Of a stretch of 25,402 nucleotides of DNA, positions 14,055 through 23,716 are shown piece after piece. The DNA is taken from assembly GCA_964472435.1 (NCBI GenBank), contig CAYYNG010000001.1, positions 1 through 25,402 on the forward strand, written 5' to 3'. The translations under genes and the position numbers were made by a program. A model generated the notes under the pieces. The model was not told the origin of the DNA. It searched no databases and saw nothing but the letters and a program-made list of their open reading frames with translations. The stretch is from an uncultured Hyphomonadaceae bacterium (GTDB lineage Bacteria; Pseudomonadota; Alphaproteobacteria; Caulobacterales; Hyphomonadaceae). Position 1 is the stretch's first letter, and every line of letters starts with the position of its first letter.

Positions 14055-14144
14055 GGTGAGGTGGCCGAGTGGTCGAAGGCGCACGCCTGGAACGCGTGTA
14101 GGCAGGCAACTGTCTCCAGGGTTCGAATCCCTGTCTCACCGCCA
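14055..14144 (+). tRNA. tRNA-Ser(GGA)
   Basis: 90 nt. Acceptor stem GGTGAGG/TCTCACC plus GCCA; anticodon arm CACGC-CTGGAAC-GCGTG (GGA at 14089-14091); long variable arm; T-loop GGTTCGAATCC. Confidence 0.97.
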
Positions 14145-14212
14145 GCTCCGTTTAGGCGGTGTTAACCGGCCCGTTTCATCGTCCGGGGAAAATTCCCCCA
14201 GGAGATATAGCC

Positions 14213-14704
14213 ATGTCCCGACTGACCGCCGTTCGTTTTCTGCTCGCCGGCGCCGCCGCTGCGGGCCTCGCCACGGCCGCCGCAGCCCAAGGATTGGAAA
14301 CGCGCCAGACCGTGTCCCGCATCGAATTCTCCGAAGGGCCGAACGGCGAGACGGTTCGCAGCGAAGTTTCGGCCGAGACCGTCGCGCCGGGCGATCGGGT
14401 CCGTTATCAGCTTTCGTTTTCCAACGCCGGCGCCGAACCGGCGTCAGCGATCGCCCTAGTGATGCCGATCCCGGCTGAAACTGTCCTGATCGAAGGCACC
14501 CCGGAAGCGACGCTGTCAGCGACCACCACCTATTCTGTCGATCAAGGCGTCACGTTCGCTCCGTTGGATGTGTTGGAAGTCGCCAGCGGCGAGTTGGTCC
14601 GCCCAGCCCGGGCCGGCGATGTCACCCATGTCCGCTGGGCCGTGCTCGACGATGTCGCGCCGTCTGCTACGGGATCCGTAGCGTTCGAAGCGCAAGTCCG
14701 TTAA
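14213..14704 (+). CDS. Cluster gene A: secreted single truncated DUF11-like domain protein (putative chaperone or cap)
   Basis: SD AGGAG; Sec signal ending AAAA|Q; DUF11-like PGDRVRYQLSFSNAG...PIP; C-terminus ...GSVAFEAQVR*. Confidence 0.85.
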   Translation: MSRLTAVRFLLAGAAAAGLATAAAAQGLETRQTVSRIEFSEGPNGETVRSEVSAETVAPGDRVRYQLSFSNAGAEPASAIALVMPIPAETVLIEGTPEATLSATTTYSVDQGVTFAPLDVLEVASGELVRPARAGDVTHVRWAVLDDVAPSATGSVAFEAQVR

Positions 14705-14723: not shown

Positions 14724-14767
14724 CAGGTGGGCTTTCAAGTTTTGTTGAAGGCTCGCCTGCCTTTTTT
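14724..14767 (+). terminator. Probable Rho-independent terminator after gene A
   Basis: 15-bp stem CAGGTGGGCTTTCAA/TTGAAGGCTCGCCTG (three G-U pairs), 6-nt loop, followed by CC and TTTTTT. Confidence 0.7.
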
Positions 14768-14887
14768 GCCCCATTTCAGCCTTGTTTTTGCAGCGGCGGC
14801 GAAAATTCCCAAGAACCGCTTAGGTTCGCTTTAATCAATTTCAGAGATTTCGTGGTTCATCAGACCCTAACCGTGGCGGATTGAACC

Positions 14888-16228
14888 ATGACGAAACGTG
14901 ATTTCCCGGCGGCTCGCTCCGCCAAACTGAGTTCAGCGGCGGTCGCCGCGCTGCTCTTCGCTGCTGGCGCGCACGCGCAGGCGACGCCTCCAGCAGACAA
15001 TAACTTCACCGACGCCGGTACGGCCGTCGAAAACACCTTCACCCTGGACTACTCGGTCGCGGGCGCCGCCCAAGACACGATCACCAATGACGACAGCCAG
15101 GCCGGTGTGGCCGGCGTGATCGTCCAAGGCACGCCGACCCAGTTCCTCGTCGACCGGATCGTCGACCTCGACCTGATCTCGATCGACCCCTCCTCGACCT
15201 TGGTCGTCGCCCCGGGCGCGCCGGCGGCGGCGGGCCGCGTCGGCCCGGCCGGCCCGGAATTGTCCTTCCTCCTCACCAACACGGGCAACGACAACCAAGC
15301 CTACTCGCTCGCCCTGACCGATGGCGCGGACAGCAACGGCGCCGATCTAAACTTCGACGCCACCCCTTACGTGATCCGCGTCGTCGTCGACGATAATGGC
15401 ACGCCGGGGTTCCAGACAACCGGCGCGACCCCGGATACGATCACCACGATCACGGAGCTTGCATCGACCAACAACGCCAACGCCGCAGCCGGCGAGTTCA
15501 CCGCCGACGTGGCGCCGGACGATACGATCCTGATCCTTGTCGAGGGCGACATTCCTGAGATCGGCGACGACCTCGACTCTGACACGAACCCGGACGATCT
15601 CGACAACACGACCGATGATCTTGTTCTGACGGCGCGGGCGCGGGATCCGAACGCGTTTGCGATCGGCGGCGCGCCGACCACGCCGGGCGCGGTGACCACG
15701 GCGTCGGCGACCAACGACCTCGCCACCGCCGACAATGTGCTGATCGATGGAACCGGCGCGACCGACGGAGCGGCCGACGGCCTCTTCTCCGCCGCCTCGC
15801 GCTTCCTGATCGCATCGCCTGACCTTGATGCGGTCAAGACGGTTCGCGCGCTTCAGGATGTCGACGGCGTTCTCGCCACCTGCGACGGGATCGCGGCCAC
15901 GGCGGATCCGGTTCCGGCCCAGGATCCGAACGTCTTCGCCACTCCGGGGACGTGCGTTGAATACATCATCCGCGTCGTGAACCAGGGCGACGCCGGCGAC
16001 ACGGCGTCGGATGCGACGGACCTCGACGTCCTCGACGTTCTGCCGGACAATCTCACCTTCGTCTCGGCCAGCACCGACGGGTTCACCGGCGGCGCCTTCT
16101 CGGGCACCCTTCCGTCCCAGGGCGATGCCTGCGACGGCACGGCCGGCACCTGCGAAGTCGACTTCGAGAACGCCACCCTGGCGAGCGGCGCGATCGGCCG
16201 CGTGATCATTCGGGCGGTTATCGGATAA
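14888..16228 (+). CDS. Cluster gene B: secreted acidic DUF11-domain protein (putative major fibre subunit)
   Basis: Signal peptide ending AHA|Q; N-terminal AGTAVENTFTLDY strand; central FLLTNTGND motif; C-terminal PDLDAVKTV...PGTCVEYIIRVVNQG...DVLP...GRVIIRAVIG*. Confidence 0.88.
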   Translation: MTKRDFPAARSAKLSSAAVAALLFAAGAHAQATPPADNNFTDAGTAVENTFTLDYSVAGAAQDTITNDDSQAGVAGVIVQGTPTQFLVDRIVDLDLISIDPSSTLVVAPGAPAAAGRVGPAGPELSFLLTNTGNDNQAYSLALTDGADSNGADLNFDATPYVIRVVVDDNGTPGFQTTGATPDTITTITELASTNNANAAAGEFTADVAPDDTILILVEGDIPEIGDDLDSDTNPDDLDNTTDDLVLTARARDPNAFAIGGAPTTPGAVTTASATNDLATADNVLIDGTGATDGAADGLFSAASRFLIASPDLDAVKTVRALQDVDGVLATCDGIAATADPVPAQDPNVFATPGTCVEYIIRVVNQGDAGDTASDATDLDVLDVLPDNLTFVSASTDGFTGGAFSGTLPSQGDACDGTAGTCEVDFENATLASGAIGRVIIRAVIG

Positions 16229-16253
16229 TCTTCGCGAGACGAGCAAAATCAAG

Positions 16254-16285
16254 AAAGCCCCGCGCCCAAGGCGCGGGGCTTTTTT
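16254..16285 (+). terminator. Rho-independent terminator after gene B
   Basis: AAAGCCCCGCGCC-CAA-GGCGCGGGGCTTT followed by a T-run. Confidence 0.9.
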
Positions 16286-16449
16286 CTTTTCAAACCCCGT
16301 GAAATTTCACTGAAATCCAAACTCAGTCATCAGGAAAATATTTCTCCGTAAATGCGATAGTAATCATGGGCCGGCAAAATAGGCCATAAAGAAACGCAAA
16401 TATAAGCGCCAAACAAGGTTAACCCGCGGCGCAATGATGGTGGTTGCAG

Positions 16450-19400
16450 ATGGGTGTTTCCGTTTGGAAACAATTGCGCGGTATGGCCGCGGCTACGCTG
16501 TTTGTAGCCGCCGGCGCCGCCATGCCCGCCGCCGCCGAATTGGGCGAAACGGTCACCAATGTTGCGCAGCTCGCCTATGATCAAAGCGGCGTCAGCTTCG
16601 AGGTCGAGACCAACCCGGCGACCTTCATAATCGAGGCGGCGCGGACGCCGTCGACCATCGAGTTTTTCCGCCTGGCGCCGGCCGACCCTAATGCGTTTGT
16701 CACTCAACTCAACGGGTCGCAGTTCAGCGTGTCGGGATCGATCACGGGGGACGATTTCGAGAACATCGACCCTTCGAGTGCGATCATGGCGCGGGAGATT
16801 GCCGGCGAGGCCGACATGATCGCGCCGGCGGAGACCTATCTCGCCGGCGAGCTGATCGTTGTTCGTGTCACCGACCTTGGGCAAAACGGCGACCCCGCCC
16901 TCATTGAAACCGTGACGGTCACGCTCACCTCCGATGCGGGCGACACGATCGCGCTCCGACTTTTCGAAAGCGGCCCGGACACGGGACAGTTCCTCGCTTT
17001 CGTGCCGAGCACGGTTGAACAGACGCCCGCCAACGATGGCCGGCTGACGACGCCGAACGGCGCCGCATTGACCGCGACCTATATCGACATCTTTGATTCG
17101 ACTGAGATTTCCCTCGACACGGCCCTGGTCGACCCGTTCGGCCGCCTGTTCAACAGCCTCACTGGCGAGCTGATCGACGGCGCCCAAGTTTCAATTGTCG
17201 ACGCGGTTACAGGCGCGCCAGCGCCGGTCTTCGGCGTCGACGCGGTTTCGCCCTATCCCTCGACCCTCGTCACCGGGTCGGTGGTGACGGATGCGAGCGG
17301 GCTTGAGTATCCGCTCGGGCCCGGCGAGTTCCTCTTCCCCCTTATGCCGCCTGGGGACTACCGGCTGGAGATCAGCCCGCCCGAGGGCTTCACCGCGCCC
17401 TCGAACCGCGCGCCGGAGACATTTACCGACCTCGACAACGCGCCCTTTGAGATCATCGACGCCTCGTTCGGGGGCTCGTTTAGTTTGGATCTGACGGGAC
17501 CCCTGAATTTCGATGTCCCGCTCGACCCGGCGGGCGAACTTGTGGTGACCAAAACGGCCGGAACAGAGGTCGCCGCCGTGGGCGACTTCGTCCGATTCGA
17601 GATCGAAGTCGAAAACCGCGGCGAACGGGGCGCGATTTTCGACCTCGTCGACGTGCTGCCCGCCGGCTTCCGGTTCCGTGCGGGGTCGGTCCGCCTCGAT
17701 GGCGTGCGCGCCGCCGACCCGGTCGTCGCGCCCGACGGCGTCACGCTGCAGTTCAAGCAGCAGGCGGTGCTCGCCGGCGAACGGCTGCGGGTCAGCTATG
17801 TCACCGAGTTCGGCGCGGGCGCGGGGCTCGGCGAGGCCGTCAACGTCGCTTTCGCCGTCAGCCCCACGGGCGAGGTGATCTCGAACCGCGGCGAAGCCGC
17901 TGTCATCCTGCAGGAGGCGCTTCTGCGGTCGGCGCTCACCATTGTCGGACGCGTCGCTGAGAACGCCTGCGATCCGGATGATCCTTGGGTTCGCGAGCGG
18001 CAAGACGGGATCGGCGTGCCAGGGGTCCGGCTCTATCTCGAAACGGGGGAGTTCACCGTCACAGACGATGACGGCCTCTACCATTTCGAAGCGATCGTTC
18101 CCGGCACCCATGTTGTTCAGGTCGACCAAGAGACGCTTCCCGAAGGTTACGAAGTCGTGGTTTGCGAGGAGAACACGCAGTATGCCGGCCGGGCGTTCTC
18201 GCGTTTCGTCGAGGGCGTCGGCGGCTCGATCCAGCGGGCGAATTTCTATCTTGAATATACGGGCGAAGGCGCGGCCGAGCCTGCGGTCGAAGAGGCCGCT
18301 GCGACGGCAGCGGATGACGAGCCGCAATACGATCGGGCGTGGCTCGACGCCCAGCCCCCAGGCGCTGTCGCATGGGCTTATCCCGACCCCGACAAGACCC
18401 CTGCGAGCCCCAGCGTCGATTTCGGCGTCTCCCATCCCGCCCAGGGCGCGCTGGCGGTGACGTTGAACGGCGAGCCGGTTCCCGCGGCGAACTATGAGGG
18501 GCGGATCCAGTCGACCGACCAGTCCATGGCGCTGAGCCGTTGGCGCGGTGTCGATATCCAGCGAGGCCGCAATGAGTTCGTCGTCGCAATCGACGGCGTC
18601 GATGTGCTGACGCGCGAGATCTGGTTCGTCGACCGCGCCGTCCGCGCCGCCCAAGTGGCGGACCAATCCATTCTCGTCGCCGACGGGCGCACGAACCCCT
18701 CCATCGCCGTGCGGCTCGAGGATGCAGGCGGCCGCCCCGTCCATGCCGGCCGCCTGGTCGAGGTGAACATCGAAGCGCCCTACCGCTTGAGGGATGCGGG
18801 CGATTTCGAGACCGCCGATCCCGTGACGGCCGCCCGCTCGGCGCGCACCAGCGTCGCGGTCGGCGAGAACGGCATCGCGCGGATCGAGCTTGAGCCGACG
18901 CTGCAAACCGGCCGCGTGCGCCTGCGCGTCACCCTGGATAGCGGCGAGGAGGAGATCACCGCCTTCCTCGAACCAGAAAAGCGGGACTGGATCCTGGTCG
19001 GTCTCGCCGAGGGCACGCTGGGCGTCACCGATCTCGGCGGCGCGGCGATTGAGGACCCTGAGACCATCCTCGACGAAGACGGCCGGATCGCCTTCTTCGC
19101 CAAGGGCGTCGTGCGCGGCGATTGGCTCTTAACCATCGCCGTCGACACGGCGGTCGGTCGCGGCGACGCCGATGGCGACATTTTTGAAGATATCGACCCG
19201 AACGCTTTCTACACGCTCTACGGCGACCGATCGTTCCAAGATCATGACGCCGAAAGCCGGTTCCCGGTCTTTGTGAGGATCGAACGCCGCACCTTCCAAG
19301 CGCTCTTCGGCGACTATGACACAGACCTCACCGACACGACGCTCGGCCGCTACTCGCGCCGTCTGTCGGGTGTGAAGACGGTCTACGAGACCGACCGGGT

Positions 19401-21501
19401 GTCGGTAAACGCGTTCGCCGCCGAGACCAATCAGGGTTTCCAGAAAGACGAGTTCGCGGCCGACGGCACGTCGGGTCCGTTCGAGCTCACGGTGGCGCCG
19501 CTCCTGCGCAATTCCGAAGAGATCTTCGTCGAAACCCGCGACCGGTTCCGCCCCGACGTGATCGTGGCGACCCAGCCGCTCGCTCGGTTCGTCGACTATG
19601 ATATCGACTTCGACACCGGCGAGGTGATCTTCCGCCAACCGATCCCGGCGACGGACGCCTCGTTCAATCCCAACGTCATCGTCGCCGACTACGAGACCTC
19701 CGAAACCGTCGATCGCGACATCGTCGCCGGCGGCCGGGCGGCGGCGCGCTTTGCGGACGGCCGCGTCGAGATTGGCGCCACCTACATCCGGCAAGAGGGC
19801 GATGAGACCGAGGAAGACACGGTCAGCGACCTCGCCGGCGTCGATCTCACCATTCAAATCGATCGCAACACCGAGCTTCATGCGGAATACGCGACGAGCC
19901 GGACCGAGACGGAGGAGGTCGGCGACGACGAACGCTCCGAGGCGATCTTGGTCGAAGTGGTCCGGCGGACCGAGCGGGTGCAGGCGAGCGCTTACTTCCG
20001 CGAAGATGAAGACGGGTTCGGCCTCGGTCAACAGACCTCGGCGACGCTCGGCGCGCGCCGCTATGGCGCTGCAACGACGGTGCAGCTCGGCGATGTCTCC
20101 GGCATCGCCGCCGAGGGGCGCAGCCGGGCCTTCGTCGACAGCGAGATCTATCGCGAAGAGAACCTCAACACCGGCGACACGCGGACCGTCGCCGAAGCGT
20201 CCGTTGGCCAAGACGGCCAACTGTTTGGGATCAGCGCCGGGGTGCGGAACGTCGTTGAGGATTTCAACGCCACCGGCGACCAGCGAACCTCGCTGGCCGC
20301 CATCGCATCCGTCCGCGGCACGATCCCGCGGTTCGGCCTCAACGTCACCGCCAGCCACGAACAGCCGCTTGGCGCGCGCGACGAATCCTCGCTTTTCCCC
20401 CAGCGCACGGTGATTGGCGTGGACAAGACCCTGACCCGGTTCGCCACCCTGAACGTGCGCCACGAGATCCTCGACGGCGCGGACGCGTCTGGCCGCAATA
20501 CGATCGCCGGCGTCACGGTTCGTCCCTGGACCGGCGCTGAGGTGCGCGCGGCGACCGACTTCGCAACCACCGATTCAGGCCGTCGGATCGGGGCGACGGT
20601 CGGCGTCGACCAAAACATCCGGATCAATGAGAACTGGTCGGCTGGCTTCGGCGTCGCCCGGCGCATTGGGATTGATAATGACGATGCGCCGCTGGACGTC
20701 GCGCCTGACGCCGCGCTTTCGCCGCTCGAGACGGCGCCGCAAAGCCCGCTGACCTTGGATGACGGCTTTACGTCTTTGACCACTGGCCTCGGCTACCAAA
20801 CGAGAGGCACGTCCACCTCGGCTCGCTTCGAGTTCCGGGACTCGGCCCTTGGTCAACGCTTCACAGGCGTTTTAGGAGGCGCACGCCAAGCCTCGGAGAC
20901 GTTGTCCTTCGCAGCCGCCGCCCGCCTGCAGCGCGAAACCTTCACTATCGAGGGCGCAGAAGCGCGACGGGATATCGATGCGCGCCTCGGCCTCGCCTAT
21001 CGGCCCCGCGGCGAGGGCGTGATCATTTTCAACCGATTGGATGTGAAGGCCGAGGAGGTCTTCAACACGACCCAGCAGTATCGGATCGTGAACAATTTCA
21101 GCGCCAACATCCTGCCGACGGATAAGATCGAGCTTGCAGTCTTCTACGGCGCGAAGTTCACCGACGCGACGTTCGATGGCGACCAATTCCAAAGCTTCGC
21201 GCAGCTTTTCGGCGGCGAGTTCCGCCACGATGTGCGCCCTTGGCTGGATGTCGGCGTCCAAGGCTCGGTGCTGCACTCGGCGACCACCGACACCTTGGAT
21301 TACTCATATGGTCCGTCGTTGGGCGCGACGCCGGCGACCAATTTTTATGTCAGATTAGGCTGGAACTTAGAAGGCTTCGTGGATCGCGACTTCGAAGCCG
21401 CCGAATTCACCCGCGAGGGCCCCTTCGTTAAGCTTCGGATAAAATTTGACCAAGATACTGTTGGCGAGCTTTTGAGGCGGGTCACGCCCAACGGGCCGTA
21501 G
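16450..21501 (+). CDS. Cluster gene C: about 1680-aa protein with N-terminal Ig-like/DUF11/SdrD-B-like domains and a predicted C-terminal outer-membrane beta-barrel
   Basis: Signal peptide ending PAAA|E; complete DUF11 domain at about 17533-17910; SdrD/Cna-B-like GVPGVRLYLETG..TVTDDDGLYHF..IVPGTHVVQVD. From about 18985 the sequence shows alternating amphipathic strands ending FVKLRIKFD. The start may be TTG 16444 or ATG 16450. Confidence 0.85.
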   Translation: MGVSVWKQLRGMAAATLFVAAGAAMPAAAELGETVTNVAQLAYDQSGVSFEVETNPATFIIEAARTPSTIEFFRLAPADPNAFVTQLNGSQFSVSGSITGDDFENIDPSSAIMAREIAGEADMIAPAETYLAGELIVVRVTDLGQNGDPALIETVTVTLTSDAGDTIALRLFESGPDTGQFLAFVPSTVEQTPANDGRLTTPNGAALTATYIDIFDSTEISLDTALVDPFGRLFNSLTGELIDGAQVSIVDAVTGAPAPVFGVDAVSPYPSTLVTGSVVTDASGLEYPLGPGEFLFPLMPPGDYRLEISPPEGFTAPSNRAPETFTDLDNAPFEIIDASFGGSFSLDLTGPLNFDVPLDPAGELVVTKTAGTEVAAVGDFVRFEIEVENRGERGAIFDLVDVLPAGFRFRAGSVRLDGVRAADPVVAPDGVTLQFKQQAVLAGERLRVSYVTEFGAGAGLGEAVNVAFAVSPTGEVISNRGEAAVILQEALLRSALTIVGRVAENACDPDDPWVRERQDGIGVPGVRLYLETGEFTVTDDDGLYHFEAIVPGTHVVQVDQETLPEGYEVVVCEENTQYAGRAFSRFVEGVGGSIQRANFYLEYTGEGAAEPAVEEAAATAADDEPQYDRAWLDAQPPGAVAWAYPDPDKTPASPSVDFGVSHPAQGALAVTLNGEPVPAANYEGRIQSTDQSMALSRWRGVDIQRGRNEFVVAIDGVDVLTREIWFVDRAVRAAQVADQSILVADGRTNPSIAVRLEDAGGRPVHAGRLVEVNIEAPYRLRDAGDFETADPVTAARSARTSVAVGENGIARIELEPTLQTGRVRLRVTLDSGEEEITAFLEPEKRDWILVGLAEGTLGVTDLGGAAIEDPETILDEDGRIAFFAKGVVRGDWLLTIAVDTAVGRGDADGDIFEDIDPNAFYTLYGDRSFQDHDAESRFPVFVRIERRTFQALFGDYDTDLTDTTLGRYSRRLSGVKTVYETDRVSVNAFAAETNQGFQKDEFAADGTSGPFELTVAPLLRNSEEIFVETRDRFRPDVIVATQPLARFVDYDIDFDTGEVIFRQPIPATDASFNPNVIVADYETSETVDRDIVAGGRAAARFADGRVEIGATYIRQEGDETEEDTVSDLAGVDLTIQIDRNTELHAEYATSRTETEEVGDDERSEAILVEVVRRTERVQASAYFREDEDGFGLGQQTSATLGARRYGAATTVQLGDVSGIAAEGRSRAFVDSEIYREENLNTGDTRTVAEASVGQDGQLFGISAGVRNVVEDFNATGDQRTSLAAIASVRGTIPRFGLNVTASHEQPLGARDESSLFPQRTVIGVDKTLTRFATLNVRHEILDGADASGRNTIAGVTVRPWTGAEVRAATDFATTDSGRRIGATVGVDQNIRINENWSAGFGVARRIGIDNDDAPLDVAPDAALSPLETAPQSPLTLDDGFTSLTTGLGYQTRGTSTSARFEFRDSALGQRFTGVLGGARQASETLSFAAAARLQRETFTIEGAEARRDIDARLGLAYRPRGEGVIIFNRLDVKAEEVFNTTQQYRIVNNFSANILPTDKIELAVFYGAKFTDATFDGDQFQSFAQLFGGEFRHDVRPWLDVGVQGSVLHSATTDTLDYSYGPSLGATPATNFYVRLGWNLEGFVDRDFEAAEFTREGPFVKLRIKFDQDTVGELLRRVTPNGP

Positions 21502-21505
21502 GCGC

Positions 21506-23716
21506 ATGCGGGACATCCTCTTAAACATTCGATCGGCGGCCGGCGCGCTGATCGTGGCGGCGGCGGGTCTCGCGGCCACGAATCCCGCCGCCGCCCAGGC
21601 GGTCGGGACACTGGATTGGTCGAGCCAGGGACTGACGAGCGCCGCGCCCCTGCCCAATCCGTTCATCGTCAGCTCGGGCGGTCGAACGCTAACCATAACC
21701 ACCTCGACCCAAGGCGCGGGGCCCGGGATCGCCACTGTCTACGCCGACTTCGTAACCTTCAATACCGGCGCGCTCTCCGGGCCCGGCGGCATCGGCGTCC
21801 TGGCGTTCAACAATAATAATGTGGACAATAATGAACGCATCATCTTCGAGATGACGTTCGACGAACCGGTCGCCAACCTCGCCTTCGACGTCCAGGACAT
21901 CGACCAGACCGGCGCGGGCGACGATGCGGTGGTTGTGAGCTTCGACGACGGCACGGGCTTTCAGACGCTGCGGGGCACGCCATTTGTCTCGCTGTCGGGA
22001 GCCTCGATCATCGAAGACAACGCGCCGGGTTTCGACGGCTGGGAAGGGAACGGCGCCTCCGGCGTCGCCGACAGCGCCGCCGATCTGCAGATCGATTTCG
22101 GCGCGCAGGAAGTGATCGCCGTGCGCATCGAGTTGTTCAACGCAGACGACTCGCCCGCCGACCCCGGCAACCAATTCGCAGGCATCTCCGATATCAGCTG
22201 GACGACCCCGCCCGGCGCCGACCTGTCGCTTTCGCTTGTCGCCAGCGACGCCGATGCGACGCTAGGCGACCCCACGGCGCTGACGCTGACGGTGATGAAC
22301 GACGGCGCGCTGGCGACCAGCGGCGTCGCCGTGTCGCTGCCGCTCGCACCGAACCTGCGGTACGCCTCCGCCAATGGCGGCGGCGCTTATGATCCGGTCG
22401 CCGAAATTTGGTCCGTGCCCGGCGCGCTCGCCGCCGGCGAGAGCCAGACCCTGATTGTGAACACGACGGTGAATTCGACGGCCTCGAGTTTCACTATTCG
22501 CGGCGAGGTGACGGCGAGCGCCGTCGCCGACCCGGACTCAGTCCCGGGCAACGCGGCCGCGGCGCCCTTTGAAGACGACACCGCGAGCGTCGTCTTTACG
22601 CCAGGCTTCGGCGGCGGCGGCACGACGCCTCCGCCCCTTGGCTGCGGCGCGGCGTCTCAATTCTTTGAGTGGGAGAGCAATCCTTATCCGCCGGGATCCC
22701 TCTCCCAGACCTACACCGTCAATGGATTGGGCTTCGATTTCGCCTTCACCGGCGCGACCGACGATTTCGTTCCCATTGGAGCGCTCGCCAATTCGCCTGG
22801 GACCGACGACGCCTTCACGGGCGGCATCACGGCGGACAATTCGCTGCTGTTTGCGGCCGACTACGACACCCTGGGCGAGACCATCACGCTGACGATCGAT
22901 ATCGGCGCGAGCGGGGTGGGCGTCAGCGAGCTTCAGTTTGTGATCTTCGACGTCGATTTCGGCGCCGGCACGTTCCAAGACGAGATCACGATCACCGGCT
23001 CGCTGGGCGGAGGCGCGACCATTGTTCCGCTGCTTACGCCGAGCGCGTCTAACGTCGCAAGCGGATCCGTCGCCCAGGGCGGTTCGGTCGCAGTGGGCTC
23101 CACAAGCGGCGACGCTAACGTAACGGCCACTTTCTCCCAGGCCGTCGACCAAGTTCGGATCATCTACGACAATGGCCCCGACGCGCCTGCGCTCCCGGGT
23201 CTCCAGGCGATCGCCCTCCACGATCTGGAATATTGCGAGGCGCTGCCGCCGCCGGACCTCTCCGCGGTGAAGACGACGGCGGTCTTCAATCCGGACAATC
23301 CGTCGAATCCGGGAAACAGCGTATTCGCCGTGCCCGGCAACGATGTGACCTACACGATCACCGTCACGAACAGCGGGGACGGGGTGACGGATCCAAGCTC
23401 GATCCTGCTCATCGACGAGCTTCCGGCCGAGGTCGAGTTCTTCAATGGCGATGTCGACGGCCCCTTGGGGGCTGAAACCGCAGCCGTCGCCTTCAACGAC
23501 CAGTCCTCGGGTCTGACATTCGACGCCGTAACCGACGTGCGGTTTTCGAACACGACGAGCCGGCCCCCGAGCTTCCTCGCCTGCAGCTATTCTCCTCTGC
23601 CGGCGCCGGCCTACGACCCCGCCGTTCGATTCATCTGCCTTAACCCGAAAGGGGTGATGGCCGCGGGCGACCCCGATCCGAGCTTTTCCCTCACCTTCCG
23701 CGCCCGGATTAAGTGA
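21506..23716 (+). CDS. Cluster gene D: secreted adhesin-like protein with two related beta-rich domains, one full and one truncated DUF11 domain (putative tip adhesin)
   Basis: Signal peptide ending PAAA|Q; 4 bp after the gene C stop; full DUF11 at about 22214-22600; C-terminal PDLSAVKTT...PGNDVTYTITVTNSG...DELP...SFSLTFRARIK*. Confidence 0.87.
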   Translation: MRDILLNIRSAAGALIVAAAGLAATNPAAAQAVGTLDWSSQGLTSAAPLPNPFIVSSGGRTLTITTSTQGAGPGIATVYADFVTFNTGALSGPGGIGVLAFNNNNVDNNERIIFEMTFDEPVANLAFDVQDIDQTGAGDDAVVVSFDDGTGFQTLRGTPFVSLSGASIIEDNAPGFDGWEGNGASGVADSAADLQIDFGAQEVIAVRIELFNADDSPADPGNQFAGISDISWTTPPGADLSLSLVASDADATLGDPTALTLTVMNDGALATSGVAVSLPLAPNLRYASANGGGAYDPVAEIWSVPGALAAGESQTLIVNTTVNSTASSFTIRGEVTASAVADPDSVPGNAAAAPFEDDTASVVFTPGFGGGGTTPPPLGCGAASQFFEWESNPYPPGSLSQTYTVNGLGFDFAFTGATDDFVPIGALANSPGTDDAFTGGITADNSLLFAADYDTLGETITLTIDIGASGVGVSELQFVIFDVDFGAGTFQDEITITGSLGGGATIVPLLTPSASNVASGSVAQGGSVAVGSTSGDANVTATFSQAVDQVRIIYDNGPDAPALPGLQAIALHDLEYCEALPPPDLSAVKTTAVFNPDNPSNPGNSVFAVPGNDVTYTITVTNSGDGVTDPSSILLIDELPAEVEFFNGDVDGPLGAETAAVAFNDQSSGLTFDAVTDVRFSNTTSRPPSFLACSYSPLPAPAYDPAVRFICLNPKGVMAAGDPDPSFSLTFRARIK

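What the first reader, a model, noticed from the sequence alone, without database searches (positions are those of the whole stretch)
14213..14704. Gene A is a catalytically dead acceptor domain, a candidate chaperone or chain cap
Seen: A aligns with the C-terminal acceptor domains but has Gln at the Lys position (L-E-T-R-Q32-T-V versus L-D-A-V-K-T-V in B, L-S-A-V-K-T-T in D and L-V-V-T-K-T-A in C; codon 14306). It has Met at the Asp position (LV-M84-PIP versus L-D-VLP and I-D-ELP; codon 14462). It contains no lysine at all and no donor strand. Inference: it could bind donor strands reversibly without cross-linking, preventing premature periplasmic polymerisation or controlling length.
Basis: partly seen in the sequence, partly recalled or inferred. 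Interest (0 to 1): 0.72.

Follow-up and report, generated by a model that had tools for sequence, protein, structure and literature searches.

The report
Bond-dead socket protein of fibre operon
Gene A encodes a small exported protein that copies the "socket" half-domain its neighbours seem to use to lock onto each other covalently, but it lacks the bond-forming residues, so it probably grips a partner's end only reversibly, as an assembly helper or removable cap.

Summary
Gene A (14213-14704, 163 aa, about 138 aa mature) is a stand-alone, truncated CLIPPER/DUF11 "catcher". It aligns end to end with the C-terminal catcher of D (hhalign 97%). It has Met84 where B, C and D have the catalytic Asp. 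It has no Lys and no tag, meaning no donor strand.

One caveat: flanking-motif scoring puts the Lys position at Gln32, but two profile aligners put it at Arg36. Neither residue is Lys.

In 90 family members, position 32 is Lys in 0 and position 84 is Asp in 2. Every B and D orthologue I looked at keeps both Lys and Asp.

- A is a core part of the cassette: all 18 of 61 related genomes with the C barrel also have A.
- The A lineage is older than the split between two cassette types.
- "No lysine at all" is real but not conserved, and only weakly unusual.

The function is inferred, not shown. A is probably a natural "pseudo-catcher" that docks non-covalently on the B or C tag. The scan noted the same kind of protein on other DNA (e1-5492929). 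I found no published description.

The parts
14055..14144 (+). tRNA-Ser(GGA), 68 nt upstream of gene A. This is context and possibly a shared transcript. The same tRNA lies upstream of A in 5 of 21 other loci scanned.
   Evidence: ARAGORN
14200..14204 (+). Shine-Dalgarno-like AGGAG, 8 nt before the ATG of gene A
   Evidence: sequence read
14213..14704 (+). Gene A: 163 aa, with a stand-alone truncated CLIPPER/DUF11 catcher. The mature part is about 138 aa, pI 4.4, 14.4 kDa.
14213..14287 (+). Sec-type signal peptide, residues 1-25. I read the cleavage site as AAA|QG by eye, using the AxA rule; no predictor was run. The mature chain starts 2-6 residues before the first strand, so there is no N-terminal extension.
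   Evidence: sequence; orthologue N-termini
14306..14308 (+). Gln32: the Lys-equivalent in the motif register (L-x-A-x-Q-T-V against L-T-A-A-K-T-V). Gln in 52 of 90 family members, Lys in 0 of 90.
14318..14320 (+). Arg36: the Lys-equivalent in the alternative register chosen by hhalign and HMMER. In the family it is Lys in 40 of 90 and Arg in 18 of 90.
14462..14464 (+). Met84, at the catalytic Asp position (LVMPIP against LVDVLP). In the family: Met 44, Asn 21, Asp 2 of 90.
14624..14638 (+). T-H-V-R-W motif, a family signature: T 63, H 57, R 60, W 70 of 70. Its role is unknown.
14724..14769 (+). Terminator-like hairpin (15-bp stem, -23 kcal/mol) followed by a T-run, 20 nt after the stop codon of A
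15008..15112 (+). N-terminal two-strand tag of B (residues 41-75, conserved AGT.V.NTFTL.Y), a candidate partner of A
15818..16228 (+). B catcher with Lys317 (15836-15838) and Asp383 (16034-16036). Both are kept in the orthologues where the strand was located.
16537..16659 (+). N-terminal two-strand tag of C (residues 32-72, LG..V.N.A...Y ... TN.A.F), a candidate partner of A
17551..17844 (+). Intact CLIPPER domain of C with the full triad Lys370, Asp403 and Asn467. This is the reference that shows what A lacks.
   Evidence: triad spacing compared with 9IFR in PMC12617251
23252..23716 (+). D catcher with Lys589 (23270-23272) and Asp637 (23414-23416), the closest paralogue of A

Best explanation
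Gene A encodes a Sec-exported, acidic protein of about 14 kDa. It is a free-standing copy of the "catcher" half of a split CLIPPER/DUF11 domain. It ends where the catchers of B and D end, just before the Asn-bearing strands that an intact domain has and that B and C carry at their N-termini as a two-strand tag. A has no tag of its own, no bond-forming Lys and no catalytic Asp, so it cannot make the Lys-Asn isopeptide.

I infer that it still accepts a tag (B's, perhaps C's) in its open groove and holds it non-covalently, as a natural "pseudo-catcher". The most likely use is as an assembly helper. An abundant periplasmic holdase could grip the tag, which is the first part of B to leave the Sec channel. 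That would keep the tag from reacting with B's own catcher or another B's catcher. A would then give the tag up to a live catcher, and bond formation would make the hand-over irreversible.

Shown: the sequence anatomy, the conserved loss of Lys and Asp, the co-occurrence with the cassette, and the age of the lineage. Inferred: the binding, its reversibility, the compartment and the role.
For: A is a D-type catcher.
- hhalign to the D catcher: 97%, E 1.2e-10, end to end. To the B catcher: 92.7%, to its C-terminus.
- The first strand (L.A.Q.V against L.A.K.V) and the last strand (F.A.[LI][KR]-end) are shared with the live catchers. By analogy with an intact domain, these should flank the missing tag strands.
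- In the intact C domain the Asn strand follows directly after the point where A stops: K370, D403, N467. The K-to-D spacing of 33 is the same as in 9IFR.

A has no tag.

The dead state is conserved. Among 90 members, Lys at position 32 occurs in 0 and Asp at position 84 in 2. The usual replacements are Gln (52) and Met (44) or Asn (21). Gln for Lys and Asn for Asp are near-isosteric replacements of the kind used to inactivate a site.

B and D keep Lys and Asp in every orthologue I looked at, including those of a distant cassette type.

A is a core component.
- All 18 of 61 related genomes with the C barrel have A, and none of the 40 without A has C.
- A-B-C occurs without D in 5 loci.
- The A lineage predates the split of two cassette types. 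An HMM of close A orthologues scores the distant A' at 47-75 bits, against 11-20 bits for their live catchers.

The only two close orthologues that lost Gln32 and Met84 are the orphans in genomes without C.

A strong terminator-like hairpin with a T-run follows A in 7 of 12 loci.

Engineered precedent: mutating SpyCatcher's catalytic acid gives a non-reactive pseudo-SpyCatcher that binds SpyTag reversibly (PMC6465384, passages read).
Against:
- The Atlas holds a fairly confident single-chain model of a 41%-identical orthologue (pTM 0.76, pLDDT 0.80). The domain may therefore be stable alone and need no tag.
- A survives as an orphan in two genomes without C (G022, G005). In G003 it lies 357 kb from B-C.
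- A evolves fast (33-40% identity between genera, like B), while the tags are highly conserved.
- The Lys register is ambiguous. In the alternative register 40 of 90 members do have Lys, and 2 of 90 have Lys36 together with Asp84.
- The survey of CLIPPER domains says that some ordinary DUF11 domains simply lack the isopeptide residues.
- I cannot say how a tag-less A would cross the outer membrane, or whether it does.
Confidence: 0.45

Rival explanations
1. A is a structural end piece of the finished fibre. It would be a non-adhesive cap or first subunit that sits on the free tag of the outermost B, in the topological place D takes, and stays there.
For: A and D are the only tag-less catchers, and A is closest to the D catcher. 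Five loci have A-B-C but no D, so there A is the only possible tag-less end piece. A diverges as fast as the presumed shaft protein B, as exposed subunits often do.
Against: A permanent cap would gain from the covalent lock that D keeps. Yet the loss of Lys and Asp is maintained across the family. A cap is needed once per fibre, but A is the first gene and is often followed by a terminator-like hairpin, a layout I recall as typical of abundant products. I saw no export route for a tag-less protein.
Confidence: 0.25
2. A does not bind tags at all. It is a self-sufficient Ig-like CLIPPER-type domain without an isopeptide, serving another job in the cassette. Examples would be docking to the C barrel, chaperoning another part of B or D, or acting as a secreted matrix or coat protein.
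For: Some DUF11 domains lack the isopeptide residues in ordinary adhesins (PMC12617251). A confident single-chain Atlas model exists for an orthologue. Orphan and unlinked copies exist. Family-specific conserved residues (T-H-x-R-W, S-x-D-G-G-x-T-F) point to constraints of its own.
Against: A stops exactly where the split catchers stop and lacks the Asn strands. The strands next to the gap are the ones shared with the live catchers. A co-occurs strictly with a tag-bearing barrel protein.
Confidence: 0.2
3. A is a decaying relic of a duplicated catcher with no function.
For: It has lost both reactive residues. Orphan copies exist.
Against: Open frames with a signal peptide and conserved motifs occur in 20 of 60 other related genomes (one hit weak and partial), and in 70 small (210 aa or less) representatives among the best 150 hits. 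The lineage is older than the cassette split. One copy goes with each cassette.
Confidence: 0.03

Closest known systems
CLIPPER / DUF11 domain (PF01345, TIGR01451; crystal structure 9IFR; PMC12617251, passages read)
   Same: Same domain family by sequence. It has the same PGD..Y...N.G core and the x-L-P strand that normally carries the catalytic Asp.
   Different: CLIPPER is a complete sandwich, locked inside one chain by Lys-Asp-Asn. A has none of the three residues, stops before the Asn strand, and is a single free domain rather than a repeat in a long stalk.
Pseudo-SpyCatcher / SpyDock (engineered CnaB2 catcher with the catalytic Glu77 mutated; PMC6465384, passages read)
   Same: Both are catchers whose catalytic acid is replaced. 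SpyDock then binds its tag reversibly instead of covalently, and this is what I propose for A.
   Different: SpyDock is man-made, has a CnaB fold and keeps its Lys. A is natural, CnaA-like (CLIPPER), lacks the Lys as well, and its binding is not shown.
Chaperone-usher pilus chaperones (PapD/FimC). Knowledge recalled, plus abstract starts seen (for example PMC1868955).
   Same: Both are small periplasmic Ig-like proteins encoded next to a subunit and a large outer-membrane barrel. The proposed job is also the same: keep subunits from polymerising too early through strand complementation that is later exchanged.
   Different: The CU chaperone has two domains and donates a strand to the subunit's groove. 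A has one domain and would accept the subunit's strand. There is no sequence relation (no Pfam hit).
"Exchange and lock" fibres: C. perfringens BsaA (PMC11580942) and archaeal threads (PMC9715654). Only listings and abstract starts were seen.
   Same: In these fibres the subunits are joined by a donated strand plus an intermolecular isopeptide. This is the presumed chemistry of the B, C and D partners of A.
   Different: They have different folds and hosts. I saw no bond-dead accessory paralogue in what I read of them.
Lys-less tip pilins of sortase-built Gram-positive pili
   Same: A subunit that lacks the linking Lys can only occupy a chain end.
   Different: Those pilins are joined covalently by sortase through their C-terminal sorting signal. 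A has no sorting signal and would be held non-covalently.

Membership tests
CLIPPER / DUF11 (PF01345, TIGR01451) | Profile match above the curated cut-off | tested here: inconclusive
   TIGR01451 scores 29.4 bits against a cut-off of 24, so it is met. Pfam PF01345 scores 24.5 against 24.6, just short, and covers only residues 48-113 (profile positions 4-64 of 114). phmmer finds many multi-repeat DUF11 giants.
CLIPPER / DUF11 (PF01345, TIGR01451) | Intramolecular isopeptide triad Lys-Asp-Asn (9IFR: K715, D748, N806) | tested here: not met
   A has Gln32 (or Arg36) for the Lys and Met84 for the Asp. There is no conserved Asn after W142, and the chain ends before the Asn strand. The survey says that some DUF11 domains lack the triad.
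CLIPPER / DUF11 (PF01345, TIGR01451) | Complete 7-9-strand Ig-like sandwich | not testable with these tools
I saw only the Atlas scores for an orthologue's single-chain model, not its coordinates.
Split-CLIPPER catcher of the A-B-C(-D) barrel cassette (undescribed in print as far as I searched) | Domain truncated at the same point as the B and D catchers, at the protein's C-terminus | tested here: met
   hhalign runs to the last residue of both the B and the D catcher. The intact C domain continues with G..AVN.A.
Split-CLIPPER catcher of the A-B-C(-D) barrel cassette (undescribed in print as far as I searched) | Reactive Lys and catalytic Asp | tested here: not met
   Lys at position 32 in 0 of 90 members and Asp at position 84 in 2 of 90. 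B and D keep both residues.
Split-CLIPPER catcher of the A-B-C(-D) barrel cassette (undescribed in print as far as I searched) | Encoded with tag-bearing partners and the giant barrel protein | tested here: met
   Of 24 fetched loci, 16 have A beside B or C, or within about 6 kb of it. All 18 genomes with C have A.
Chaperone-usher periplasmic chaperone (PapD/FimC type) | Two Ig-like domains of about 200-230 aa with a PapD-type Pfam match and a donated G1 strand | tested here: not met
   A has one domain of about 138 aa. No chaperone family appears among the Pfam or NCBIfam hits at E<=0.1. No donor-like tag was found. The family features listed here are recalled.
Pseudo-catcher (functional class, engineered SpyDock) | Binds the cognate tag reversibly without forming a bond | not testable with these tools
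   This needs a complex model or a binding assay. Only the loss of the catalytic residues is shown.

The most novel reading that the evidence does not exclude
A is the founding member of a new kind of pilus chaperone. It would be a bond-dead mimic of the subunit's own acceptor domain. It seizes the reactive N-terminal tag as that tag leaves the Sec channel and keeps the self-locking subunits apart in the periplasm. It then surrenders the tag at the giant barrel to a live catcher, and spontaneous isopeptide formation acts as the irreversible ratchet. This would be strand exchange with a covalent end point and no ATP, sortase or classical chaperone.
Probability: 0.3. Interest if true: 0.8.

Novelty: new variant of a known kind. 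Interest (0 to 1): 0.58.

Why it matters
Self-locking tag and catcher pairs react on contact. A cell that exports both halves needs a way to stop them reacting in the wrong place. A conserved, bond-dead catcher encoded with every cassette is the obvious candidate for that control.

If it works this way, it would show how an apparently widespread, undescribed fibre of double-membraned bacteria is kept in order. It would also give protein engineers a natural, evolved counterpart of the reversible SpyDock reagent, with Gln and Met or Asn as nature's own inactivating substitutions.

The claim is directly testable with two peptides and three small domains.

Tried and rejected
So there was no fold, no fold search and no complex model.
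- The search for related loci on genome contigs rejected alignments A1 and A2 because they have no conserved 7-10-column stretch. I therefore got no organism names for the relatives.
- The Atlas could not read the window protein. I used the stored orthologue P0027 instead.

Searches that found little.
- The word-indexed protein search with A found only A itself.
- A PDB sequence search with A found nothing.
- With profile A1 it gave only weak sialidase hits through the Asp-box-like S-x-D-G-G-x-T-F hairpin, which I take as a motif coincidence.
- The intact C domain gave one chance hit and did not reach 9IFR. A query at 22200-22560 was out of frame, and I did not repeat it.
- Sequencing runs: no RNA holder was listed. 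There were four DNA runs from one stromatolite and microbial-mat study.

Literature. Searches found no paper on this cassette or on a natural bond-dead catcher. (a cyanobacterial signal-peptide paper) concerned an unidentified DUF11 protein and was not used. Supplements were closed and not consulted.

Ideas rejected.
- A as a major subunit that polymerises by its own N-terminal strand. That strand matches the catchers' Lys strand, not a tag.
- A making a reversed Gln-Lys bond. The B and C tags hold no Lys.
- Lys-freeness as a family feature.

Slips. One search exceeded the id limit, so I read the stored files in a script instead. One search contained a bad search term and was corrected.

Full report
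What is there.

Gene A runs from the ATG at 14213, which follows an AGGAG at 14200-14204, to 14704. It encodes 163 residues. I read the first 25 by eye as a Sec signal peptide with cleavage at AAA|QG. The mature chain has about 138 residues, pI 4.4 and a mass of 14.4 kDa. It has no Lys.

A is the first of four co-oriented genes:
- A;
- B, 14888-16228;
- C, 16444-21501;
- D, 21506-23716.
A tRNA-Ser lies upstream and trpF and trpB lie downstream. All four proteins match the DUF11-type repeat. For A, TIGR01451 scores 29.4 bits (cut-off 24) and Pfam PF01345 scores 24.5 bits (cut-off 24.6).

The reference domain.

DUF11 has been renamed CLIPPER and shown to carry an intramolecular isopeptide made by Lys, a catalytic Asp and Asn (9IFR: K715, D748, N806). 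The same paper notes that some DUF11 domains lack these residues (PMC12617251, passages).

Protein C has one complete domain of this kind, with K370, D403 and N467. The Lys-to-Asp spacing is 33, as in 9IFR, and all three residues are kept in 11 orthologues.

A, B and D each end a few residues before the place where this intact domain goes on with its Asn strand. B and C each begin, right after their signal peptides, with a conserved two-strand Asn-bearing segment. I checked only the parts that bear on A.

Is A a catcher?

I built a profile from 90 A-family sequences and compared it by hhalign with three domains:
- D catcher: 97% probability, E 1.2e-10. A33-163 covers the last 151 residues and runs to the final residue.
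- B catcher: 92.7%, also to the final residue.
- Intact C domain: 92%.
Met84 falls on the catalytic Asp in all three.

HMMs of the B tags and the C tags recover every B and C N-terminus, including two loci not used to build them. They find nothing in window A or D at E<=10, and nothing better than E 0.47 in the 90 A-family members. A is therefore a catcher-only protein.

The Lys position is less certain. I scored each register of the A N-terminus against 30 Lys-strands of B, C and D, leaving the centre column out. Gln32 wins, with a mean of +1.32, against -2.59 for position 36 and -5 or lower for the others. It is the best register in 44 of 90 members, against 14 for position 36 and 10 for position 34. 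However, hhalign against D, and HMMER against one B orthologue, put the Lys on position 36. That position is Arg in the window.

Do relatives keep the dead state?

A search of 61 related genomes found A homologues in 21, including the window's own genome; one of the 21 is a weak partial hit. A search of 1.84 billion representative proteins gave 1995 hits at E<=0.001. Of the best 150, 70 are small single-domain proteins of 210 residues or fewer.

I pooled the non-identical sequences longer than 140 residues. This dropped one 108-aa fragment and the duplicates, leaving 90:
- Position 32: Gln 52, Thr 8, Ser 7, Ala 6, Leu 5, Val 4, Asn 3, His 2, others 3. Lys 0.
- Position 84: Met 44, Asn 21, Leu 8, Ile 4, Val 4, Asp 2, others 7.
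- Position 36: Lys 40, Arg 18, others 32.
- The two members with Asp84 also have Lys36.
- No Asn is conserved in the last 21 positions.

Among the 20 close orthologues, 18 have Gln32 and 16 have Met84. By contrast, every B and D orthologue in which I located the strand keeps Lys and Asp. That is nine B and nine D proteins, window included, plus the B-like proteins of four distant cassettes.

"No lysine at all" is not a family trait. The 70 small family members, the window protein included, carry 0 to 20 Lys. The window's other ORFs are only 2.2% Lys, which gives a chance of about 0.05 for a Lys-free 138-residue chain.

Is A part of the system?

The loci I fetched show these arrangements:
- A-B-C-D in 6 loci, followed by trpF in 5 of them.
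- A-B-C without D in 5 loci, one of them from another family of the class.
- D followed by A in two loci, with the end of C seen before D in one of them.
- One genome (G003) with B-C-trpF and A lying 357 kb away.
- One locus (G022) with A alone next to trpF.

Four diverged cassettes show A', then a protein of about 1000 residues with a tag and a live catcher, then a protein of about 2000 residues with a tag and a barrel.

Across the 61 relatives, all 18 genomes with the C barrel have A, and none of the 40 without A has C. A alone occurs in G005, G022 and one doubtful case, G058. These genomes are kin, so this is a pattern and not a statistic. Twelve genera show both genes.

The two orphan copies are exactly the two close orthologues that lost Gln32 and Met84. 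This is a single lineage, so the hint is weak.

An HMM of the 20 close A orthologues scores the distant A' proteins at 47-75 bits, and the live catchers of those same cassettes at 11-20 bits. The D and B catcher HMMs prefer D' and B'. The dead catcher is thus an old lineage of its own.

In an even sample of the class, only 3 of 300 other genomes have A at E<=1e-8. A related cassette of "hypothetical proteins" lies on a cyanobacterial plasmid.

Expression hints.

A 15-bp hairpin with a T-run starts 20 nt after the stop codon of A. In 7 of 12 loci, window included, a strong hairpin with a T-run lies within 100 nt of the A stop. Three loci have only weak or distant candidates and two have none. 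I recall a first gene followed by an attenuating hairpin as typical of abundant pilus components. This would fit a stoichiometric partner better than a once-per-fibre cap. It is weak evidence, and no RNA run was available.

How it most likely works.

A cannot form the bond. If the groove left by the missing strands is intact, A should take a tag and hold it without locking it. The shared first and last strands suggest the groove is intact.

The engineered precedent is the pseudo-SpyCatcher, which binds SpyTag reversibly once the catalytic acid is mutated (PMC6465384, passages).

Because A is closest to the D catcher, I guess that it competes with D for the B tag. The tag is the first part of B to enter the periplasm. 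A holdase that covers it before B's own catcher emerges would prevent self-reaction and premature chains. I rate this reading at 0.45.

The rivals are a permanent end cap (0.25), a tag-independent accessory domain (0.2) and a relic (0.03).

Several points count against my reading:
- There is no structural or binding evidence.
- A confident single-chain Atlas model exists for an orthologue.
- Orphan and unlinked copies exist.
- A diverges fast while the tags are well conserved.
- The Lys register is unresolved.

Comparison and novelty.

By sequence, A belongs to the CLIPPER/DUF11 superfamily, but it fails that family's chemical hallmark. By proposed function it resembles a chaperone-usher chaperone turned inside out, because it accepts a strand instead of donating one. 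It also resembles the engineered SpyDock.

I found no paper on the cassette or on a natural dead catcher. Supplements were closed.

The scan has noted the cassette in several other genomes, and a bond-dead socket protein once before on other DNA. Those notes are leads and not support.

I class A as a new variant of a known kind, of moderate to good interest, with a cheap decisive experiment.

Noticed in passing
window 14055-14144; L032, L033, L034, L035, L042: tRNA-Ser(GGA) lies directly upstream of A on the same strand in the window and in 5 of 21 other loci scanned. In several genera the cassette therefore sits between tRNA-Ser and trpF. This could be an old insertion site or a shared transcript.
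   Followed up: partly
window 14534-14557 (A residues 108-115): An Asp-box-like hairpin motif, S-x-D-G-G-x-T-F, is nearly invariant in the A family (S 69, D 68 of 70). The D catcher shares it as V.F.D..G.TF. It produced weak sialidase (BNR) hits in the PDB profile search.
   Followed up: partly
window 16254-16282: A strong 13-bp GC-rich palindromic hairpin lies just after the stop codon of B, so both A and B are followed by hairpins. The T-run reported by the scan is on the minus strand.
   Followed up: no
L036 (G022) and L010 (G005): Two genomes of one genus keep an intact orphan A next to trpF, but no C homologue was found with my query. These two copies have Ala for Gln32 and Ile for Met84.
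   Followed up: partly
L054 (AP017960.1, [Synechococcus] sp. NIES-970 plasmid, locus 10898-26768): This is a related five-gene cassette, all annotated as hypothetical proteins (910, 187, 509, 1543 and 2018 aa). The 910-aa protein has a tag-like N-terminus and a catcher-like end. The small 187-aa A-like protein keeps Asp (LTDDLP) but has no Lys outside its signal peptide.
   Followed up: partly
window 14888-23716: All four cassette proteins are Lys-poor compared with 14 other ORFs of the window. Observed against expected Lys counts: A 0 against 3.6, B 3 against 9.7, C 14 against 36.8, D 3 against 16.1.
   Followed up: partly
L045 15985-18855 (minus strand): A further 956-aa ORF lies upstream of the distant A' and has a weak tag-like hit near its N-terminus (E 0.83). 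It may be another subunit of that cassette.
   Followed up: no
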